A DNA stretch of 64,000 nucleotides. Source: an uncultured Candidatus Saccharibacteria bacterium (GTDB lineage: Bacteria; Patescibacteriota; Doudnabacteria; UBA920). A program made the position numbers and the translations under genes. Shown piece by piece: positions 1,584 through 19,291 of the stretch; the stretch's first letter is position 1; each line of letters starts with the position of its first letter. The stretch spans positions 68,969 through 132,968 of the forward strand of contig CAZHYL010000002.1 of assembly GCA_964536745.1 (NCBI GenBank), in the 5' to 3' direction. Below the pieces are notes generated by a model. The model was not told the origin of the DNA. It was given only the letters and a program-made list of their open reading frames with translations, and searched no databases.

Positions 1584-4500
1584 CTAAAAATCCATCCGGT
1601 CATAAATCATTGTGACCTCAGGGATATTGCGAAGTTGTTGTATAAGTGAGCTGGTGATACGAACACTGCTCTTAGTTTTTATAGTATTAGCCTCACCACC
1701 GCTTCCTACATTTAAATATACTTGTGCTTGTCCTGGATTTGCTTCTAGGAGCTGCTTTATTTTGTGAAGAGTTGCCTGATTCTTAATATCGGGAAGGTGA
1801 ATGGTGAGTTGTTTTTGCTTTTCAAGTTCTGCAATTGCCATAAAATACAATTCATCGTTAGGTAAATCTTTGATCTCATTTGCGATTAGTTTTGGCTCGC
1901 CGTCTTTGTAAGAAATTTTTCCACTAACTCTTATCACAGAATCGGAGTCTAGATAGGGAACAGCTGCTGGCATAACTGTCGGGAAGACTAAGACTTCCAC
2001 TCCACCCGTTTTATCTTCTAGAGTGAAGAATGCCATCGGGTCATTTTTCTTTGTGATTGTTCTTTTGGATTTAGTGATAATGCCTGCCACTTGAACAGCA
2101 TGGTTATCCATATTTTCATTTATATCTTTTATTTTTAAATACTCCTTTGCGACTTCAGTAAATTGATCTAGCGGATGACCAGTTACAAAAAGCCCCAAAT
2201 GTTCTTTTTCGTATCTTAGTCTGTCTGTTTCGCTCATTGGTTTTGCGGGTTGTAGTTTTAGCTTTCCAATTTGCATGGATTTCCCGAACAGAGAACTTTG
2301 ACCAGAATTGTTATTTTTCGTATGTTCACGTAGGAAATCTAAGACGTGTTCAGTGCTGGCTAATAATTCTGCTCGTTCACCAAACATATCTAAAGCACCT
2401 GCTTTGACCAAAGCTTCCCAAGATTTTTTATTTAAATTCTTTGTATAACACTTTAGTAAAAAGTCTTCGAGATTGTCGAATTTTATACCAGCTTTGTGGC
2501 AATCAATTATTTTTCTTACCACATCTGACCCAAGATTTTTTATTGCCCTAAGTCCAAAGCGAATTGTTTTTTCATTAATAACAGTAAAGTCGCCATAGCT
2601 TTCAGTTACTGCTGGAGGTAAAACAGAAATGCCTAAAGCTTTACACTCTTCTACTGCAGCGTAAATTTTATCTTCATCACCACTCTCTGCTGTCATTAAC
2701 GAAGCCATAAACTCTACAGTGTAGTTAGCTTTCATGTAAGCAGTTTGGTAAGAAACTTGGCTGTATGATGCAGCGTGAGCTTTGTTAAACCCATAAGCTG
2801 CGAAAGGTTCGATAAGTTTGAATAATTCTTCTGCTTGAACGGCAGGCATCCCACCGGCGATACAACCTGAAGTAAACTTTTCCTTTTGCTTGGCCATTTC
2901 TGCTGGAATTTTTTTACCCATAGCTTTTCTTAACTTGTCGGCTTCTTCCCATGTATAACCAGCAATTCTAATCGCTGTTAGCAAAACATCATCTTGGTAA
3001 ACCAATAATCCTAAAGAACGCGCTAAGTAATCTTCCATTTCAGGTACAAAGAATTTAACTAAGCTAGGATTTTTTTTGCGCGCAATGTATTCGGGGATAA
3101 TACCCATAGGGCCCGGTCGATATAACGCTATCATTGCTGAAATATCAAAAATTGTGTTTGGTTGAAGTTCTTTTAGATAACGGGTCATTCCAGATGATCC
3201 TAGTTGAAATACACCAAAGGTAAATCCGTTCGAAAGTAATTCAAAGGTCTTTGTATCATTCAAAGGAATTTGGTTTGGATCAATCACGATTCCGTGTCTA
3301 ATTTTTACAAGTCTAATTGCTTGCTCTAAAATTGATAGGTTTCTAATCCCTAACAAATCCATTTTAATTACACCAATCGCATGACTGTCTGCGCCAACGT
3401 CTAGCGCATACATATCATATTGTGTGATTAAGCGATTACCATCTGGTTCAGTCTGAAGTGGGGTATAGTCTGTGAGTGGTGTAGGGGTGATTGCTAGAGC
3501 TGCTGCATGAATCGAGGCATGTCTAACACACCCTTCCAATTTATGAGCGATATCGATAATTTTTTTTGTTTCTTCGTCGGTTTCGTAAATGGCTTTGAGC
3601 TCTGGGTTCTGATCCATTGCTTTATCTAAAGTCATCAAAAAGCCTTGTTTCCCAAGAGGAATCATTTTGGCGATACGATCACACTTTCCGTAAGGGACTG
3701 CTAAGGCTCTGCCTACATCTCTTACCACTGCACGAGCTTTCATGGTTCCAAAGGTAATGATCTGTGCAACTTTGTCGTGTCCATATTTATCAGAAATCCA
3801 AGCAATAACTTCATCGCGTCTATCATCGGCAATGTCTAAATCGATATCAGGAGGTGTGGGGCGATGTTTGGTTAAGAATCGTTCGAAGGGAAGTTGATAT
3901 TCGAGTGGGTCAATCGCACTAATTTTGAGCAGGTAACCAACAATACTTCCAGCAGCACTACCTCTTGTATTAGTTAACGCACCAAGTCCATGTGCACCTG
4001 CGACAATATCTGCCACCATTAAAAAGTACACTGCAAAGCCCATCTGACAAATAATGTCGAGCTCATATTCGATACGTTCAACTACAGTATCCGATAATAT
4101 TTTTGTTTCGTAGACTTCATATGCTCTTTCGTACACAATACGTTTCAGTTCTGACTCTGCAGTAGTACCTTCTGGTAATTCCACTTTGGCAAAGTACCGC
4201 TGATTGATTGGAATTTCAATATCAATTTGGGAAGCGATTTTTTGAGTGTTTGCGATGGCCTCTGGTAAATCTGAAAACTTTTTTATCATTTCACTTGGGC
4301 TAGAGAGTGAAAGGTCGTGGGATCTCATATCTAGTCGATTAGGGTCATCAACATTTTTCCCAGTGCCAATACAAACCATAACGTCCTGCGCTTCGGCATC
4401 GTCTTTATTAATATAGTGGCAATCTTGGGTTGCTACGATTCCAATATCAAACTTTTTACCCAATTCAACTAAAAGGTCATTTGGCATCAGTTCATGCCCG

Positions 4501-14088: not shown

Positions 14089-14175
14089 GGTAGGTAGCGA
14101 AGCGGTCAAACGCAGCTGACTGTAAATCAGCCGGCCTTGTGCCTTCACAGGTTCGAATCCTGTCCTGCCCACCAC
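14089..14175 (+). tRNA. tRNA-Tyr (anticodon GTA), long variable arm, CCA encoded
   Basis: Anticodon loop gaCTGTAAAtc, T-arm GGTTCGAATCC, 3' CCCACCA. Confidence 0.85.
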
Positions 14176-14176
14176 A

Positions 14177-14208
14177 AAACAACACTTAAGAAGTGTTGTT
14201 TTGTTTTA
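14177..14208 (+). terminator. Rho-independent terminator after the tRNA-Thr/Tyr pair
   Basis: aacaacactt-aag-aagtgttgtt followed by ttgtttt. Confidence 0.55.
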
Positions 14209-14217
14209 TATACATAA

Positions 14218-14244
14218 AATAAAAAACCGAGCTTTTGGGCTCGG
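14218..14244 (-). terminator. Minus-strand terminator for CDS 14268-14762
   Basis: ccgagc-tttt-gggctcgg preceded on the plus strand by an A-run, which is the U-run on the minus strand. Confidence 0.5.
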
Positions 14245-14267
14245 TGCAACCATTCTTTGTGAAAGGT

Positions 14268-14762
14268 TTACCTGTTACTAACCGGAGTTAGTGTGACAGG
14301 CTTTTTTGCTGCCTCTCTGACAGCTGCCGATTTGATTGTCAAAACATTTTGGATCTCTTTAGGAAGACCTTCAATGTTTTGTAGGAGTTCCTCGTAAAGA
14401 TAAATCTGGGGGACGTTTCTGACATCCGCTTCTAAGATTCGGGGTTTTCCGTCCATGAGGACGTAGATCCCATCGATCACTCCCGGTTTATTGGAAGTGC
14501 TAATCCTCACGGATTTTACGTTGCCGGCCGTATCCAAATCAATCGCGTAGGAGTTAGGCTTTTTGGACATCATGTAGAGCCTGCCTTCGACAGTCATCTC
14601 TTTTGTAAACACTGTGCGAAAGATCCATCCGTTCGAAAGGGTTTGATCCTGCGTGTAACCGCCATCACTCCACCTAACGAGATTTGAAGGAGTTTGACCA
14701 TTGACTTCGGTAATAAGCATGAAGCTGTATAGCAAAGCCAAAGCCACGAAGATTTTTTTCAT
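14268..14762 (-). CDS. Hypothetical secreted protein (signal peptide), higher GC than the surroundings
   Basis: 164 aa with N-terminal MKKIFVALALLYSFMLITEVNG. The gene is about 45% GC, against about 35% for the host average, and sits between two tRNA clusters. Confidence 0.6.
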   Translation of the reverse strand: MKKIFVALALLYSFMLITEVNGQTPSNLVRWSDGGYTQDQTLSNGWIFRTVFTKEMTVEGRLYMMSKKPNSYAIDLDTAGNVKSVRISTSNKPGVIDGIYVLMDGKPRILEADVRNVPQIYLYEELLQNIEGLPKEIQNVLTIKSAAVREAAKKPVTLTPVSNR

Positions 14763-15145
14763 CTATGGTATTCCTCTTTTTGGTTTGTGCTAGAACAAAT
14801 TTTCTGTTCCGCGTTCCCTTCTTCGCGAAACACAAATTAATTGTTTTAAAGTGCGTATACTATAACATTAGTTTGCATTTTTGTCAATACAACATGTTTT
14901 TTGTTGGACATGCTATTGAAAACATTTTAGGCAAAAGAAAAAGCGCGAGGAGGTGCGCGCTTAAAAAAAATGCAAACGGAAACTCCGATTAACCCTATGA
15001 AAACGGTGGTAAAATACGGATTCCCGCGGAGGACAATTCCTCCCTATATAAATTGAAATGCTATAAAAGCAATGCTATTTTAGCAGGCAAACTAGACAAA
15101 GTCAAGGGTTTGTGTTAAACTTTGAAAGTTATTTAAGCCATTTAA

Positions 15146-15222
15146 GCCGGCTTAGCTCAGCTGGTTAGAGCAACGGTTTTGTAAACCGTAGGTCGTCGGT
15201 CCGAATCCGACAGCCGGCTCCA
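15146..15222 (+). tRNA. tRNA-Thr (anticodon TGT), CCA encoded
   Basis: Acceptor GCCGGCT / AGCCGGC, anticodon loop ACGGTtTTGTAaACCGT. Confidence 0.85.
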
Positions 15223-15235
15223 TTAAGAAAACAAT

Positions 15236-15391
15236 ATGTCACAAGACCACAGAATTCAGTTGGAATGCACAGTGTGCCGCAATATCAACTACAATACATC
15301 CAAGAATAAAAAGAACACTCAAGCACGACTTGAAATAAATAAGTATTGTAAGCACTGTCGAAAGCAGACCTCACATAAAGAAACCAAATAA
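15236..15391 (+). CDS. rpmG: Ribosomal protein L33 (51 aa, below the ORF-track length cutoff)
   Basis: Manual translation gives [51 protein letters not shown]: a CxxC...CxxC zinc ribbon. The tRNA-Thr / rpmG / tRNA-Trp neighbourhood is the conserved one. Confidence 0.8.
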
Positions 15392-15396
15392 GACAT

Positions 15397-15420
15397 CCCT
15401 CGCTCTGCGAGGGAGTTTGG
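15397..15420 (+). terminator. Hairpin CCCTCGC-tct-GCGAGGG after rpmG; weak T-tract
   Basis: Perfect 7-bp stem seen in the sequence. Confidence 0.35.
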
Positions 15421-15441
15421 TATAATATGAAGCGAAGATAT

Positions 15442-15515
15442 GGGGGCTTCGTATAATGGTAGTACAATGGTCTCCAAAACCATTTGCGTAGGTTCGATTC
15501 CTACAGCCCCTGCCA
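15442..15515 (+). tRNA. tRNA-Trp (anticodon CCA), CCA encoded
   Basis: Anticodon loop gtCTCCAAAac, T-arm GTAGGTTCGATTCCTAC. Confidence 0.85.
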
Positions 15516-15573
15516 CAAAAATACTCAGCATTTGCTGGGTGTTTTTGTTTGAGGGCAAACGAGAATCGAACTG

Positions 15574-16182
15574 GTGTATAATATTCCTATGGATGACAAA
15601 ACTATCTTAGCTTACGACAATTACGCAGAAAAATATGATGAAGAGACGATAGATTTTTGGGAAAGATTTCCAAGAACATTTTTTGATAAGTTTATTTCTC
15701 TTAGCTCAGGAAAGATTCTAGACATCGGGAGTGGTCCGGGGATAGATGGTAAGATCTTACAAAGTAATGGACTCGAGGTAATTTGCGTAGATGCTTCTCA
15801 GTCTATGGTAGAGTTGTCTGCCAAGCGCGGCTTAAAATCAATCGTTGCTGATTTTGCCGAGTTACCATTTGAAGATAACCATTTTGATGGGGTGTGGGCA
15901 TATACTTCCTTGTTACACGTTCCGAAAAAACAAATGAATCAGTCCATCATTGAACTCAAAAGGGTATTGAAACCAAATGGTATTTTTGGACTAGGAATGA
16001 TTGAAGGGGATACAGAAGAGTATAGAGTTACCTCAAAAGTAATAGAACCTAGATGGTTTAGCTTTTATAATAGAAATGAGCTTGAGACTTTATTGAAAGA
16101 GAACGGATTTGATATTTTGTATTTTGAACAGTTTAAGCCAAACACGAAAAACTATTTAAACTTCATAGCACGTAATAGTTAA
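15574..16182 (+). CDS. Class I SAM-dependent methyltransferase
   Basis: 202 aa with motif I ILDIGSGPGIDG. Confidence 0.7.
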   Translation: MYNIPMDDKTILAYDNYAEKYDEETIDFWERFPRTFFDKFISLSSGKILDIGSGPGIDGKILQSNGLEVICVDASQSMVELSAKRGLKSIVADFAELPFEDNHFDGVWAYTSLLHVPKKQMNQSIIELKRVLKPNGIFGLGMIEGDTEEYRVTSKVIEPRWFSFYNRNELETLLKENGFDILYFEQFKPNTKNYLNFIARNS

Positions 16183-16220
16183 AATAGTTCTAACATCCTC
16201 TACCACGCCCTGCCACAAAA

Positions 16221-16242
16221 ATCGCCGCGATGGCGGTTTTTT
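16221..16242 (+). terminator. Rho-independent terminator (CGCC-gcgat-GGCG followed by tttttt) after the methyltransferase
   Basis: Read directly from the sequence. It immediately follows a repeat of the tRNA-Trp 3' end. Confidence 0.45.
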
Positions 16243-16256
16243 GCTATCCTATAAAT

Positions 16257-17021
16257 ATGAATGAACATAGGGAACAACATTTAAGTCCAGAAAGAATGAA
16301 AGGCGAACAAGTCGCCTCCATGGTAAAGGAAGTGTTTGATAAATTCCCCTTTGAAGTTACACAGCACTTGGTTGATTCAAATGTTGTATTAACGCTTGCA
16401 GGAATGAAAGGTCAGACTGAATTTTTTATAGATGTCCCAGATGAATCTCAAGATGAAAGAATTATTCAAGGGATTAATGAGCTAAGTCAAAAATTACAAT
16501 CAATTGATTCAAATATAATTATGAGGTTGGAGCGTGAACCTTTCCCTGCAGCGAGTGATGGTGTGAGGACGATGATGGTGAATGTTCTGAACCTTTCTAC
16601 TTTAGAGGAGTGGATTCAAAAAACAAAACTTTGTGATTTACCCAAGTTTGATAAATCACAGGGTTTTGCTGGATTTGATAAATGGCGCGAAGACGTCGTC
16701 GAAAAATTTGGAGAAGATAGTGATGAGCAAGAAATGGGGGTCGGCGTTAGAAAAGGCTACCCTGATCAAGCGATTCTAGATTTTATTGATTGGTACAATA
16801 CTGGACGTGAAAAAGTTAAAGAAGATGCGAAAATTCTGAATACTGGTTTATATGATGAAGCTCAGCCGATTTATAGCTATTATGCAGAGCATGCTAATGA
16901 TCCAGAGATAGTCGATAATGTAAATCGATCATCAGAGATTCTCGCTGGTTTTTATCAGAGCCAGTGGCACAAGGAAATCGCTCCACGACTAGAATTTAAA
17001 AAGGGTCGCAATCTTGAATAA
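16257..17021 (+). CDS. Hypothetical protein
   Basis: About 254 aa. Start moved to MNEHREQ, which follows a TATAAAT box. No recognisable domain. Confidence 0.5.
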   Translation: MNEHREQHLSPERMKGEQVASMVKEVFDKFPFEVTQHLVDSNVVLTLAGMKGQTEFFIDVPDESQDERIIQGINELSQKLQSIDSNIIMRLEREPFPAASDGVRTMMVNVLNLSTLEEWIQKTKLCDLPKFDKSQGFAGFDKWREDVVEKFGEDSDEQEMGVGVRKGYPDQAILDFIDWYNTGREKVKEDAKILNTGLYDEAQPIYSYYAEHANDPEIVDNVNRSSEILAGFYQSQWHKEIAPRLEFKKGRNLE

Positions 17022-17072
17022 TATGATGGAGTCTGTGTATAAAACAAGCTTGCGTGAGCAGGATTTAGATTT

Positions 17073-17921
17073 ATGACATACAACCCAGAAATATCGCATC
17101 ATAACTTTATCGATAATAACCGTGAAGTTAGCCCAGAAGCTAAGCTTACTGGTTTAATGAGTTCGGTTTCAGAAAAGCAAAATTTGGAGCTTGAACAGCG
17201 CTTTGGTTTAAGTAAGCTTTTGGATTCAGAAGGTAGAATATCCAGTGCAGATTACGGTTCCGTTTATACTGAACAGGAATTAAATGAGTTTTTGGCTACT
17301 TTAAATAAAATGGAACAGAAATTTTCAGAAAAGAATTCTGGACATTTTTCTGATAGAGAACAATGGAAGGCGGATAAATCAAAAAGTAAAGGTAATCAAA
17401 CAGAGCTGGCTATAACTTGCTTATTGTATAAAATGTTAGGTGATAGATACTTGGTAGCACGAACGAACGAATATGATGATTATACAAATGGTGCAGACAA
17501 CGTGCTGATAGATAAAGAAACAGGGGTTGCGATTTGCGCTTTCGATGAAGTGTATGACCGCGAGGAAGAGCGCACTAATGCAGAAAAGAAGCAATTAAAA
17601 GTTTTAGAGATTGCTCTCGCAGGTGGTACTGATATAAATTTCGGAGTTGTGTCCGAGGAGGGTGTTTTAAAAAGAGGGAAACAAGAAAATTTGCCCATTT
17701 TCTATTTGGGTTTGAATAAGGAAGAATTGAATGAATTACTTCAAGAAATGGCTGACGACCCAAATGAAAAAACTGATTTAGAAAGAGTTGTCTACGCGAA
17801 GTTAATGAAATCTATTGCCCAGCAGTTTGTTGTGCTAATGCGACAGAATCTTCCAGAGAAGGTAAAAGAAAATTTATTTAAATTTAAAGAGTCGTTTAGT
17901 AAAGTTCAGATCCCTAAGTAG
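17073..17921 (+). CDS. Hypothetical protein (acidic, coiled-coil-rich)
   Basis: 282 aa ORF with no recognisable domain. Confidence 0.5.
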   Translation: MTYNPEISHHNFIDNNREVSPEAKLTGLMSSVSEKQNLELEQRFGLSKLLDSEGRISSADYGSVYTEQELNEFLATLNKMEQKFSEKNSGHFSDREQWKADKSKSKGNQTELAITCLLYKMLGDRYLVARTNEYDDYTNGADNVLIDKETGVAICAFDEVYDREEERTNAEKKQLKVLEIALAGGTDINFGVVSEEGVLKRGKQENLPIFYLGLNKEELNELLQEMADDPNEKTDLERVVYAKLMKSIAQQFVVLMRQNLPEKVKENLFKFKESFSKVQIPK

Positions 17922-17922
17922 C

Positions 17923-18810
17923 TTATTGGGCTTCTAACCTCCGCAGAGTCTCGTCGCACCAGCCTAAAAATAGACTGCGAATATCCACGCCTTGCGCCAA
18001 GAGCATTTTTGGAATTAGTGAGGTTTTTGTTAATCCTGGAATGGTGTTGATTTCTAAAAAATACACCTTTCCATTTTTTGAAACCATAAAATCAGACCGC
18101 GTAAGATGTTTGGCACCAATAGAATTGTGAATCAATAGTGCTGATTCTTTGAGTGTTTTTTCTAATTCGGGATGTATATTGGCTGGGCAAATTTCTTCTG
18201 CTAGATACTCGGAATCATATTTACTTTGGTAGTCAAAAACACCGTTGTGAGAAATAATTTCTACTACAGGAAGTGATTGCGCAACACTATGATGCTGTAT
18301 TACTCCCACAGTAAACTCTCTCCCAAAAACAGGCTCTTCTAGTAAAAAATCTTCTGAGGGATTATTCTGCATTAATTTTTGAAGTTCTAATGTACTGGTA
18401 CATAGCTGAGAGGCAATTGAGGACCCTCCAAAATTTGGTTTTGCAAAAAGAGGGAAAGTGGGCGATGGTCCGGCAATTTCTGTGGCGATGTTTATTCCCA
18501 AGTCTTTTGCGACCTGTTTCGTAAATCTTTTGTCTAGAGCAGACTTATGTGTTCTAGGATTAGAGAAAAGGTACGGTAAGTTTACGCTCTCTAAGTACTC
18601 TTGGATCGCTCCATCTTCGCCGCCAACGCCATGAATTATTGGGATTGCAATGTGAAATTCCGCTATTCTATCCTGAAAGCTAGCTTGATCCTCTGGAAAT
18701 ACAAAAACCACAGAATCATCTAGGTTCAGGACTGTTTGCAAATTTTTTGCAGAATTAATAGAGACATCTCGCTCACCAGAAACTCCGCCGGTTATAATCG
18801 CAATTCTCAT
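17923..18810 (-). CDS. ddl: D-alanine--D-alanine ligase (ATP-grasp)
   Basis: 295 aa. N-terminus MRIAIITGGVSGERDVSINSA, then ...HGVGGEDGAIQEYLE..., matching the Ddl N-terminal and central domains. Confidence 0.8.
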   Translation of the reverse strand: MRIAIITGGVSGERDVSINSAKNLQTVLNLDDSVVFVFPEDQASFQDRIAEFHIAIPIIHGVGGEDGAIQEYLESVNLPYLFSNPRTHKSALDKRFTKQVAKDLGINIATEIAGPSPTFPLFAKPNFGGSSIASQLCTSTLELQKLMQNNPSEDFLLEEPVFGREFTVGVIQHHSVAQSLPVVEIISHNGVFDYQSKYDSEYLAEEICPANIHPELEKTLKESALLIHNSIGAKHLTRSDFMVSKNGKVYFLEINTIPGLTKTSLIPKMLLAQGVDIRSLFLGWCDETLRRLEAQ

Positions 18811-18895: not shown

Positions 18896-19291
18896 ATGAG
18901 CGCACACGAAAAAGAAGCAATATTCACTGAATTAAGGGAATATCACCTAAAAAACTTTCCAGAAACCACTAGTTCGGAAAGTTATTCTGACGTCTACAAA
19001 CAGTTTCTTTTAGCAGAGGAAACAATTATAAATATGGTTCTTCAATTAGTAAACGGGAAGTCAGAGTATGTTGACCATAACCCAAAGCTCCAACAATTAA
19101 TGGAAATTGTAAAAAAACAAAGTTTAGCAGACCCGAATTTTACAACAGTAAGTGATATTTTTATAGAGAAGTGTTCACACCTGGGAAAAATTCTTAGTCT
19201 TGCGTCAGTAGGGGATTTTCCTCTTCGCAAGCAAAAGGTGCCTAGGATTTCGTTGGCTACCAAACCTATCATCACTAAGAAAAATAAGTAA
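18896..19291 (+). CDS. Hypothetical protein
   Basis: 131 aa ORF with no recognisable domain. Confidence 0.45.
   Translation: MSAHEKEAIFTELREYHLKNFPETTSSESYSDVYKQFLLAEETIINMVLQLVNGKSEYVDHNPKLQQLMEIVKKQSLADPNFTTVSDIFIEKCSHLGKILSLASVGDFPLRKQKVPRISLATKPIITKKNK

What the first reader, a model, noticed from the sequence alone, without database searches (positions are those of the whole stretch)
15442..16245. Methyltransferase cassette bracketed by a direct repeat of the tRNA-Trp 3' end
The last 14-15 nt of tRNA-Trp plus trailing bases (GCCCCTGCCACAAAAAT, 15505-15521) recur at 16204-16220 (CGCCCTGCCACAAAAAT). The second copy lies just downstream of the stop of a SAM-dependent methyltransferase gene (15574-16182). 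A terminator follows it immediately. A tRNA 3'-end duplication flanking inserted DNA is the classic scar of site-specific integration at a tRNA gene. The secE-nusG pair that usually follows rpmG / tRNA-Trp is replaced here by this methyltransferase and two unrelated hypothetical genes (16257-17921). No integrase is present, so this would be a decayed or minimal integrated element.
Basis: seen in the sequence. Interest (0 to 1): 0.5.

Follow-up and report, generated by a model that had tools for sequence, protein, structure and literature searches.

The report
Single-gene cassette inserted at tRNA-Trp
A 700-bp unit carrying one methyltransferase gene, with its own terminator and promoter, sits at the 3' end of tRNA-Trp in a Saccharibacteria-like genome, and related genomes hold whole arrays of such one-gene units at the same place with no recombinase gene nearby.

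Summary
The repeat is real. An exact 15-mer, CCCTGCCACAAAAAT, lies at 15508-15522 (last 8 nt of tRNA-Trp plus 7 nt of trailer) and again at 16208-16222, 700 nt away. It brackets a class I SAM methyltransferase gene.

The same 700-bp unit occurs in GCA_041910175.1 with no tRNA beside it. Identity to the window is about 96-100% from core to core and absent outside.

There, and in four other related contigs, the unit belongs to a same-orientation array of 0.5-1.4 kb, mostly one-gene cassettes. A conserved junction separates them: left arm AAAATAGTTCTAACATCCTYYACCACG, a core ending in the tRNA-like GCCA, a terminator hairpin, often an inverted right arm, then a -10 box 6 nt before the ATG.

Where the tRNA is on the contig, the array starts at tRNA-Trp. 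It fills a hypervariable interval between tRNA-Trp and conserved flank genes.

No recombinase gene was seen in the window or the array contigs.

Best reading: cassettes moved by site-specific recombination at the tRNA-Trp 3' end by an unlinked enzyme. This is integron-like in logic and a tRNA island in anchoring.

The enzyme, an empty site and a circular form were not observed. Homologous recombination between junction modules is the main rival.

The methyltransferase is not a restriction-modification enzyme. Absence of secE-nusG is lineage-wide.

The parts
15442..15515 (+). tRNA-Trp (CCA anticodon, encoded 3' CCA). It is intact and serves as the attachment site (attB-like). Its T-loop region GGTTCGATTC (15489-15498) is the inverted partner of right arm A.
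   Evidence: ARAGORN; Rfam tRNA 65.6 bits; identical tRNA in L014 and L004; fold.
15508..15522 (+). Core copy 1 (attL side): CCCTGCCACAAAAAT, made of the last 8 nt of the tRNA plus 7 nt of trailer.
15516..15547 (+). Terminator-type hairpin 1: A-tract CAAAAAT, stem ACTCAGC/GCTGGGT, loop ATTT, then GTTTTTG. It travels with the methyltransferase in L002 and L003.
   Evidence: Sequence; fold; the conserved hairpin has 3 compensatory pairs across 15 junctions; cassette alignment.
15551..15572 (+). Right arm, type A: GAGGGCAAACGAGAATCGAACT. Its reverse complement contains GTTCGATTC, an inverted copy of the tRNA-Trp T-loop region.
   Evidence: 9-nt exact inverted match, p = 0.004 by shuffling; ssDNA fold -19.9 kcal/mol, z -4.3; alignment A2.
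15577..15582 (+). -10 box TATAAT, 6 nt before the ATG (leaderless-type promoter). Conserved as TGGTGTATAAT in many cassettes.
   Evidence: the same geometry is common genome-wide.
15589..16182 (+). Cargo gene: a 197-aa class I SAM-dependent methyltransferase (ORF open from GTG 15574).
   Evidence: Pfam Methyltransf_11 1e-19 and Methyltransf_25 5e-18; homologues are mostly 197-198 aa; NCBIfam and PADLOC.
16183..16207 (+). Left arm AATAGTTCTAACATCCTCTACCACG, the conserved cassette 3' element present at array junctions in relatives.
16208..16222 (+). Core copy 2 (attR side): CCCTGCCACAAAAAT.
16223..16242 (+). Terminator-type hairpin 2 (CGCCGCGATGGCGG plus T-run). No right arm follows. The same junction type precedes other genes in L002 (2953-2990) and L014 (about 3330-3380).
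16245..17021 (+). -10-like TATCCT (16245-16250) 6 nt before ATG 16257, and a 254-aa gene of unknown function. This is the first gene after the cassette. It is not recombinase-like.
17073..18810 (.). Rest of the variable interval: a 282-aa unknown gene (+, 17073-17921) and ddl (-, 17923-18810). No recognisable junction element is present here.
18896..19291 (+). Conserved 131-aa flank gene. It marks the right border of the variable interval in CAYVOF010000003.1 and L014.

Best explanation
The methyltransferase gene is the cargo of a 700-bp cassette (one core-to-core repeat unit, window 15508-16207, i.e. core 1 through the left arm; core 2 follows at 16208-16222). The cassette is joined to the chromosome by site-specific recombination within a roughly 12-15-bp core (CTGCCACAAAAA) that overlaps the 3' end of tRNA-Trp.

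The cassette carries everything needed to function in any context. At its 5' end it has an A-tract/hairpin/T-tract terminator, which ends the upstream transcript, here the tRNA's. Next come a right arm and a -10 box placed 6 nt before the ATG. The cargo ORF follows. At its 3' end a conserved 25-nt left arm abuts the core.

Recombination regenerates the tRNA's last 8 nt, so tRNA-Trp stays intact, and leaves the core as a direct repeat. Repeated events build same-orientation arrays, as seen in relatives.

The enzyme is not encoded in the cassette or near the array, so it must act in trans.

Shown: the repeat, the module's sharp core-to-core boundaries, the arrays, the conserved junction anatomy and the absence of a nearby recombinase gene.

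Inferred: the circular intermediate, the recombinase itself, which partner moved, and that the promoter and terminator are functional.
For: (1) The exact 15-nt core is duplicated 700 nt apart and overlaps the tRNA end. It is non-random, and only 2 of 106 control tRNA-Trp loci show such a duplication.

(2) Window 15506-16222 aligns to L002 (GCA_041910175.1) from core to core at about 96% overall. Identity is near 100% outside one 75-nt patch. There is no homology on either side: the window has the tRNA and hairpin 2, while L002 has another gene's left arm and hairpin 3.

(3) Arrays of junction elements occur in relatives, all on the same strand:
- L002: spacing 700, 554 and 550 nt.
- CAYVOF010000003.1: at least 9 junctions between tRNA-Trp and the conserved flank.
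- L008: tRNA-Trp followed by three cassettes.
- L014.
- Diverged versions flank the 64-68% identical methyltransferase in L144 and L143.

(4) Upstream-arm type (tRNA or left arm) and right-arm type (A or B) assort independently across 15 junctions. This is expected if exchange occurs between them.

(5) Displaced tRNA-Trp 3' ends of 19-21 nt lie behind short inserts in L014, L018 and L107.

(6) Cargo is accessory-type: several different methyltransferases, GNAT, SDR, NUDIX, a RelE/YoeB-like toxin pair, and unknowns.

(7) No recombinase ORF was seen in the window's translations (only 9 of its ORFs, all in 13.1-20.3 kb, were scanned with Pfam). None appears in the precomputed Pfam lists of L002, L010, L014, L018, L144 or L145.
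Against: No recombinase has been identified. No empty site or circular junction was observed.

Only about six lineages could be sampled, most from short metagenomic contigs.

Outside the core, the left arm is not significantly similar to the tRNA-Trp 3' half (p 0.7-0.97). The tRNA link therefore rests on the core and on the longer remnants in L014, L018 and L107.

Hairpin 1 is found with right arm A (window, L002), with right arm B (L008) and behind a displaced tRNA remnant (L014). Not every breakpoint can therefore lie in the core.

L004 is 99.9% identical to the window from the tRNA-Trp 5' end rightwards but only about 75-92% identical to its left. That points to homologous exchange anchored on the tRNA, or to a chimeric contig.

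The comparison with L002 cannot say whether the methyltransferase unit or its neighbours moved.
Confidence: 0.55

Rival explanations
1. Cassette shuffling by homologous recombination, with no dedicated recombinase. The ~100-nt junction modules (left arm, core, terminator, right arm, promoter) and the conserved tRNA-Trp act as portable homology. After natural transformation, RecA exchanges, deletes or inserts whatever lies between two modules. The tRNA-like core would be a relic of one ancient integration.
For: Junction modules share 80-95% identity over 60-117 nt between cassettes and between genomes, which is long enough for RecA. Hairpin 1 is combined with different arms. L004 looks like a block exchange with one end in or at tRNA-Trp. 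A 75-nt mosaic patch inside the methyltransferase shows recombination within cassettes.
Against: In the window the two junctions share only the 15-nt core, too short for efficient RecA exchange by established knowledge. Homologous recombination does not explain how unrelated genes first acquired identical modules. It also does not explain why every junction keeps the tRNA-like ...GCCA end, or why displaced true tRNA ends occur.
Confidence: 0.22
2. Ordinary decayed genomic island. One or more integrase-carrying elements once integrated at tRNA-Trp and have since lost the integrase and most genes, leaving att scars.
For: A direct repeat of the tRNA 3' end with an intact tRNA. tRNA-proximal accretion with scattered partial tRNAs is described for tycheposon islands (10.1101/2020.12.28.424599).
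Against: No integrase fragment was seen in any array held. Units are uniform: 0.5-1.4 kb, usually one gene, with the same left arm and promoter/terminator module around unrelated cargo. Random decay would not produce that.
Confidence: 0.1
3. The ~95-nt palindromic junction is itself a miniature inverted-repeat element, or a purely regulatory terminator/promoter module, that has inserted between ordinary genes. The match to the tRNA end would be incidental.
For: Type-B junctions have terminal inverted repeats AGTTCTAAC...GTTAGAACT and fold into a long imperfect hairpin (-22.8 kcal/mol, z -5.7). They supply a terminator and a -10 box.
Against: Copies are confined to the interval after tRNA-Trp and all lie in one orientation. 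The window has only the two partial copies. The strict pattern hit only 2 contigs among 185,579 species genomes. Many junctions lack the right arm. The arms recombine independently.
Confidence: 0.06
4. RNA-level function. The left arm plus ...GCCA at the 3' end of each mRNA would be a tRNA-like 3' tag for processing or stability. The repeats would then be conserved for that reason rather than as recombination sites.
For: Every junction places ...GCCA just before an A-tract and terminator hairpin, downstream of the cargo stop codon.
Against: No Rfam family matches. The left arm cannot form an acceptor stem on its own. Cassettes with minus-strand genes carry the element on the non-coding side. 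This idea does not explain the core-to-core module boundaries.
Confidence: 0.04

Closest known systems
Integron gene cassettes, attC arrays and CALINs (clusters of attC sites lacking an integrase). Features recalled from general knowledge.
   Same: Arrays of small, mostly single-gene cassettes in one orientation. Cargo is accessory-type and includes a toxin-antitoxin pair, acetyltransferase and NUDIX genes. A conserved imperfect-palindrome junction of about 60-100 nt is present, with ends (TCTAAC...GTTAGA) that resemble the attC R''/R' boxes. No recombinase lies inside the cassettes.
   Different: The anchor is the 3' end of tRNA-Trp, not attI next to intI. No IntI-like gene is nearby. The inferred breakpoints lie in the core next to the left arm, not in the R' box. 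Each cassette brings its own -10 box and terminator rather than relying on Pc. The right arm is dispensable (absent in the window's second junction). The host is Saccharibacteria/CPR.
tRNA-targeting integrative elements and islands built by tandem accretion, for example tycheposons of Prochlorococcus (10.1101/2020.12.28.424599).
   Same: The attachment site overlaps a tRNA 3' end. The tRNA is regenerated. Partial tRNA repeats flank inserts. New arrivals push older ones into a hypervariable island next to the tRNA.
   Different: Tycheposons are multi-kb elements that carry their own tyrosine or serine recombinase and replication genes. Here the units are 0.5-1.4 kb, usually hold one gene, have no recombinase anywhere in the arrays, and share a standard promoter/terminator module.
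Cis-mobilisable elements (CIMEs) and integrase-less satellites that use an integrase supplied in trans; also Xer-dependent modules such as pdif modules of Acinetobacter plasmids. From general knowledge.
   Same: Small cargo modules bounded by recombination sites and dependent on a recombinase encoded elsewhere.
   Different: Those sites are att sites of a known ICE or 28-bp dif-like sites. The junction here is neither dif-like nor linked to any known element.
Bacterial MITEs that carry promoters or terminators (for example Correia elements; general knowledge).
   Same: A roughly 95-nt imperfect palindrome that provides terminator and promoter signals.
   Different: The copies are not dispersed. 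They have one orientation, one locus and a tRNA-matching core, and they delimit exchangeable genes.

Membership tests
Integron (intI + attI + attC cassette array) | Integron-type tyrosine recombinase gene (intI) adjacent to the array | tested here: not met
   No recombinase-like ORF was seen by eye in the translations of the 64-kb window (only 9 ORFs between 13.1 and 20.3 kb were Pfam-scanned). There is no PF00589 or PF00239 in the precomputed Pfam lists of L002, L010, L014, L018, L144 or L145. Array ORFs of L002, L007, L008, L009 and L014 that were scanned gave only cargo-type domains. The rest of each genome was not available.
Integron (intI + attI + attC cassette array) | attC site: imperfect inverted repeat with R''/L''...L'/R' boxes (RYYYAAC...GTTRRRY, as recalled) at the 3' end of each cassette | tested here: inconclusive
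   Type-B junctions are imperfect palindromes (AGTTCTAAC...GTTAGAACT; z -5.7), but each end departs from the recalled consensus by one base. Type-A and hairpin-2 junctions, including the window's second copy, lack a matching right arm. The IntegronFinder attC covariance model was not available.
Integron (intI + attI + attC cassette array) | Cassette boundary (crossover) inside the R' box, G/TT | tested here: not met
   Homology between the window and L002 starts and stops in the core CTGCCACAAAAA. The hairpin and right arm travel with the downstream gene.
Integron (intI + attI + attC cassette array) | Cassettes generally promoterless, expressed from a common Pc | tested here: not met
   A -10 hexamer lies 6 nt before the ATG in most plus-strand cassettes. 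Function was not tested.
tRNA-integrating genomic island / integrative element (including tycheposons) | Direct repeat of the tRNA 3' end flanking the insert, with the tRNA gene left intact | tested here: met
   longer displaced tRNA ends in L014, L018 and L107.
tRNA-integrating genomic island / integrative element (including tycheposons) | Element-encoded integrase, usually next to one att site | tested here: not met
   The cassette holds only the methyltransferase ORF. No integrase is present in any array held.
tRNA-integrating genomic island / integrative element (including tycheposons) | Occupied versus empty site, or excised circle, in related genomes or populations | not testable with these tools
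   All contigs of the window's species are occupied (L001, L004-6, L010, L011). Raw reads could not be searched, and look-ups were exhausted.
MITE / dispersed palindromic repeat | Many copies dispersed over unrelated loci, in both orientations | tested here: not met
   There are only two partial copies in the window, both at this locus. All copies in relatives are on the tRNA strand, in one interval. The strict pattern occurs in only 2 contigs of the species-representative genome collection.
Restriction-modification / DNA methyltransferase | DNA methyltransferase domain (N6/N4 or C5 type) and a partner nuclease | tested here: not met
   Pfam gives only small-molecule-type class I families (Methyltransf_11/25/23, UbiE, TehB). 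No NCBIfam family is above cut-off. PADLOC gives only a generic methyltransferase-domain hit to mad2.

The most novel reading that the evidence does not exclude
A previously undescribed gene-capture system of Saccharibacteria/CPR, functionally parallel to integrons. Self-contained cassettes (terminator, promoter, ORF) would be inserted at the 3' end of tRNA-Trp by a recombinase encoded elsewhere in these tiny genomes. The recombinase would recognise a conserved left arm plus a tRNA-like core, possibly as a folded palindrome. This would generate the hypervariable interval that separates tRNA-Trp from conserved flank genes across genera.
Probability: 0.35. Interest if true: 0.85.

Novelty: new variant of a known kind. 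Interest (0 to 1): 0.62.

Why it matters
Saccharibacteria and other CPR bacteria have genomes of about 1 Mb or less and few recognised mobile elements. How they gain and lose accessory genes is poorly understood.

A tRNA-anchored cassette array with standardised expression modules and no linked integrase would be a compact route to strain-level variation. Here the cargo is small-molecule methyltransferases, acetyltransferases, NUDIX hydrolases and toxin-antitoxin genes.

It would also be a second, independent solution to the problem integrons solve. The defined junction (about 40 nt of left arm plus core) gives a searchable signature for finding the arrays and, by co-occurrence, the missing recombinase. 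It could also serve as a natural landing pad for genetic work in these organisms.

If the rival (homologous exchange at repeated modules) is right, the locus is still a clear example of a modular hot spot for transformation-driven gene exchange.

Tried and rejected
- **Chance repeat:** rejected (control loci).
- **General tRNA-Trp trailer:** rejected. 120 metagenomic loci with the same tRNA end have quite different trailers.
- **Restriction-modification or defence methyltransferase:** rejected. No close relative lies on known plasmids or phages.
- **Known RNA family for the junction:** none in Rfam.
- **Phage attP:** the junction pattern has no hit in IMG/VR.
- **JGI metagenomes:** no hit to the left-arm pattern. 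The second scan, with the tRNA end, returned only unrelated lineages.
- **Third, degenerate junction after the 282-aa gene (about 17925-17975):** not significant. 12 of 2556 window tiles score as well.
- **Left arm as a diverged tRNA-Trp 3' half:** not supported statistically outside the core.
- **dif/Xer-like reading of the left arm:** considered by eye and dropped, because it lacks the inner palindrome.
- **254-aa neighbour as a hidden recombinase:** a confident AF2 model (pLDDT 91) has no meaningful PDB match.
- **282-aa neighbour:** the single-sequence model was unusable (pLDDT 36).
- **Compositional anomaly of the insert:** none.
- **rpmG exact-protein look-up:** failed, because the gene is not called in the collection.
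- **-10 box 6 nt before the ATG as a cassette hallmark:** rejected. It is common genome-wide.
Full report
**Observation**

tRNA-Trp lies at 15442-15515 and has an encoded CCA. The exact string shared by the two sites is the 15-mer CCCTGCCACAAAAAT, at 15508-15522 and 16208-16222, exactly 700 nt apart. It covers the last 8 nt of the tRNA plus 7 nt of trailer.

No other copy exists in the window, even with 2 mismatches, and no dinucleotide shuffle gave two matches. Both copies are followed by an A-tract/hairpin/T-run of terminator type: 15516-15547 and 16223-16242.

As a base-rate control I examined 106 metagenomic tRNA-Trp loci that have the same 25-nt 3' end. Only 2 carry a repeat of 12 nt or more of the tRNA end downstream, and the trailers are very diverse. 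The duplication is therefore neither chance nor a general trailer.

**The organism and the neighbourhood**

The window encodes housekeeping genes of a Saccharibacteria-like CPR bacterium: dnaE, prfA, rpsB, tsf, rpmG, ddl, uppS, mur genes, secA/D/F, lepA and the atp operon. The only species-representative genomes that share the junction element are labelled Saccharibacteria and Peribacteria MAGs.

I saw no integrase or other recombinase ORF when reading the translations of the 64 kb. I also saw no secE or nusG. Only 9 ORFs, all between 13.1 and 20.3 kb, were scanned against Pfam. GC content shows no anomaly over the insert.

**The cargo**

The ORF (ATG 15589 to 16182, 197 aa) is a class I SAM methyltransferase of the small-molecule type, matching Methyltransf_11/25.
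- No NCBIfam model passes its cut-off.
- PADLOC gives only a generic methyltransferase-domain match.
- Nothing on known plasmids or phages is more than 38% identical.
- It belongs to a large Patescibacteria family at about 60-66% identity.

It is not a restriction-modification gene.

**The decisive comparison**

A 96% identical protein (P0002) lies on contig JAYRRK010000086.1 of GCA_041910175.1 (locus L002) with no tRNA on the contig. At the DNA level, window 15506-16222 aligns with L002 from core to core. Identity is essentially complete apart from one 75-nt divergent patch in the SAM-binding region.

To the left of the first core the window has tRNA-Trp, whereas L002 has the end of an unrelated gene followed by AAAATAGTTCTAACATCCTTCACCACG. 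To the right of the second core the window has hairpin 2, whereas L002 has a different hairpin, a right arm and another gene.

The 700-bp unit is therefore a discrete module whose boundaries on both sides fall in CTGCCACAAAAA. This comparison alone cannot say whether the module or its neighbours moved.

**Arrays in relatives**

- **L002** carries four junctions at spacings of 700, 554 and 550 nt, plus two decayed ones further on.
- **CAYVOF010000003.1** (L009 and L007) is syntenic with the window on both sides. It holds at least nine junctions between tRNA-Trp and the homologue of window gene 18896-19291.
- **L008** starts in a near-identical tRNA-Trp and continues with three cassettes.
- **L014** has an identical tRNA-Trp and a 48% identical flank protein. 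It holds a full junction, a degenerate one and a hairpin-2-type junction before the conserved flank gene.
- **L144 and L143** carry methyltransferase homologues of 64% and 68% identity, and these are also flanked by diverged versions of the element. In L144 the element reads AAAAGTTCYAACATCRTCCCAsACnGCCA and occurs in at least 5 copies.

All junctions lie on the tRNA strand. Units are 0.5-1.4 kb and usually hold one gene, on either strand.

Cargo includes four different class I methyltransferases, a GNAT acetyltransferase, an SDR, NUDIX hydrolases, a RelE/YoeB-like toxin with a partner, a Band_7 protein, a lipoprotein and unknowns.

L145 is a more distant syntenic genome. Its interval between tRNA-Trp and the O-methyltransferase flank is a 10.5-kb island of about 17 small genes, including a 64% identical homologue of the methyltransferase, but no detectable junction repeats. 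The interval is thus hypervariable across genera, and the footprints are legible only in some lineages.

**Anatomy of the junction** (alignment A2 of 15 junctions)

The parts, in order:
1. A left arm, AATAGTTCTAACATCCTYYACCACG.
2. A core, CCCTGCCA(C/G)AAAA, ending in discriminator G plus CCA.
3. An A-tract/hairpin/T-tract whose stem varies by compensatory changes (3 pairs).
4. Often a right arm.
5. A -10 box (TGGTGTATAAT).

The right arm comes in two types. Type B (GGGGCAAGTGGAGGTTAGAACT) is an inverted copy of the left arm (p = 0.0035). Type A (GAGGGCAAACGAGAATCGAACT, the type in the window) is an inverted copy of the tRNA-Trp T-loop region (p = 0.004). As single strands, type-B junctions fold into a long imperfect hairpin (-22.8 kcal/mol, z -5.7). 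The window's tRNA-side junction does too (-19.9 kcal/mol, z -4.3), but the window's second junction, which lacks a right arm, does not.

Upstream-arm type and right-arm type occur in all four combinations. This is what exchange between them predicts. Cassettes with minus-strand genes, and the hairpin-2 type, lack the right arm. The constant part is therefore left arm plus core plus hairpin.

Outside the core, the left arm is not significantly similar to the tRNA. However, true displaced tRNA-Trp ends of 19-21 nt occur behind short inserts in L014, L018 and L107.

The -10 box sits 6 nt before the ATG in most plus-strand cassettes. That leaderless-type geometry is common throughout this genome, so the cassettes are adapted to the host's expression style rather than distinctive in this respect.

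**Mechanism**

The best-supported reading is site-specific recombination in the core at the tRNA-Trp 3' end, carried out by an enzyme encoded elsewhere.

The attP-like site of a cassette would be left arm, core, hairpin and right arm. The attB-like site would be the tRNA end, core and hairpin. The product keeps the tRNA intact and duplicates the core. Successive events build arrays.

The shown steps are the repeat, the module boundaries, the arrays, the junction anatomy and the lack of a nearby recombinase gene. The inferred steps are the circle, the enzyme, the direction of movement and the activity of the promoter and terminator. I put this at about 0.55.

**Rivals**

The main rival (about 0.22) is homologous recombination between the roughly 100-nt junction modules and across the conserved tRNA after natural transformation.
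- In its favour: modules share 80-95% identity between genomes. Hairpin 1 occurs with both right-arm types and behind a displaced tRNA end. Contig L004 is 99.9% identical to the window from the tRNA-Trp 5' end rightwards, but only about 75-92% identical to its left. That is either a block exchange or an assembly chimera.
- Against it: the window's two junctions share only 15 nt. Homologous recombination also does not explain how unrelated genes acquired the same modules, or why each junction keeps a tRNA-like end.

A decayed conventional island (0.10) is unlikely because the units are uniform and no integrase remnants are present. A MITE or a purely regulatory module (0.06) is unlikely because copies are confined to one locus and one orientation. 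An RNA 3'-tag function (0.04) has no support beyond the GCCA motif.

**Comparison with known systems**

The system works like an integron in logic, with small cassettes, arrays, accessory cargo, a palindromic junction and a recombinase outside the cassettes. It fails the membership tests I could apply:
- No adjacent intI.
- Breakpoints lie in the core, not in an R' box.
- Each cassette has its own promoter.
- The right arm is dispensable.

It is anchored like tRNA-targeting islands such as tycheposons, where partial tRNAs flank elements and newcomers push older ones into the island (10.1101/2020.12.28.424599). Those elements, however, are multi-kb and carry their own integrase.

Full-text searches for integrons, attC or tRNA-linked islands in Saccharibacteria, Patescibacteria or CPR found nothing describing this. 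I therefore rate it a new variant of a known kind.

The verdict is partly supported. The repeat and its reading as a recombination scar at a tRNA hold. The 'decayed element', the hint at restriction-modification and the 'replaced secE-nusG' parts do not. secE and nusG are absent after tRNA-Trp in all relatives examined.

**Limits**

- The recombinase is unknown.
- No empty site or circle was seen.
- Only a handful of lineages were available, mostly short metagenomic contigs.
- All look-up quotas were used.

Noticed in passing
L004 1-1246 versus window 15140-15440 (tRNA-Thr, rpmG): ENA wastewater contig L004 is 99.9% identical to the window from the first base of tRNA-Trp rightwards for 2.7 kb. 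Its rpmG and tRNA-Thr(tgt) to the left are only about 75% and 92% identical. This is either recent transfer of the whole tRNA-Trp-linked block between diverged genomes, or a chimeric assembly.
   Followed up: partly
L018 4800-5120; L019/L020; L037; L119; L144 about 4000-4240: Small GIY-YIG genes sit beside or inside duplicated pieces of tRNA-Trp in several CPR contigs. In L018 a tRNA-Trp 5' half comes first, then the GIY-YIG gene, then the full tRNA. tRNA-Trp appears to be a target of homing-endonuclease-type elements as well.
   Followed up: no
L014 348-500 and L107 3147-3330: A homologous, gene-less insert of about 170 nt (shared AAAGGAATWGAAGGGYGCGAG...GCGAGCAGGATTCCTAC) lies between tRNA-Trp and a displaced copy of its 3' end in two unrelated samples. 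No Rfam match. It may be a small structured RNA or a mini-element.
   Followed up: partly
L018 4215-4350: tRNA-Thr(tgt) is also followed, about 90 nt downstream, by a second copy of its own 3' half (ACGTAGGTGGCCCCGGTGTGATACCGGGACAGCCGGCTCCA). tRNA-end duplications are therefore not limited to tRNA-Trp in this clade.
   Followed up: no
L009 2683-3357: In CAYVOF010000003.1 a 224-aa ORF lies between rpmG and tRNA-Trp, overlapping the tRNA start. It has an N-terminal resolvase-type HTH (HTH_7/HTH_23) and a C-terminal part that by eye resembles LAGLIDADG-like endonucleases. It is absent from the window.
   Followed up: partly
window 15720-15800: Within the otherwise near-identical methyltransferase cassette, a 75-nt patch over the SAM-binding motif differs at many sites between the window and L002. 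This is a mosaic patch suggesting gene conversion from another allele.
   Followed up: no
window, many gene starts (e.g. 18810, 18896, 19326, 20341, 38740, 55636): A -10-like hexamer (TAnnnT) lies exactly 6 nt upstream of the ATG at many first genes, and few have a Shine-Dalgarno motif. Leaderless mRNAs seem common in this organism.
   Followed up: partly
[not shown]
   Followed up: partly
window 14175-15145: The minus-strand 164-aa gene between tRNA-Tyr and tRNA-Thr(tgt) has no Pfam hit. This interval holds different contents in relatives: a 165-aa gene in L145, a different gene in L004, and an inverted tRNA-Tyr in L009. It may be a second variable spot beside a tRNA.
   Followed up: no
L014 7583-7908 (-); window about 23.0-24.6 kb: RNase P RNA lies just after uppS in L014. 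The gene-poor stretch after uppS in the window probably holds the same RNA. Not checked.
   Followed up: no
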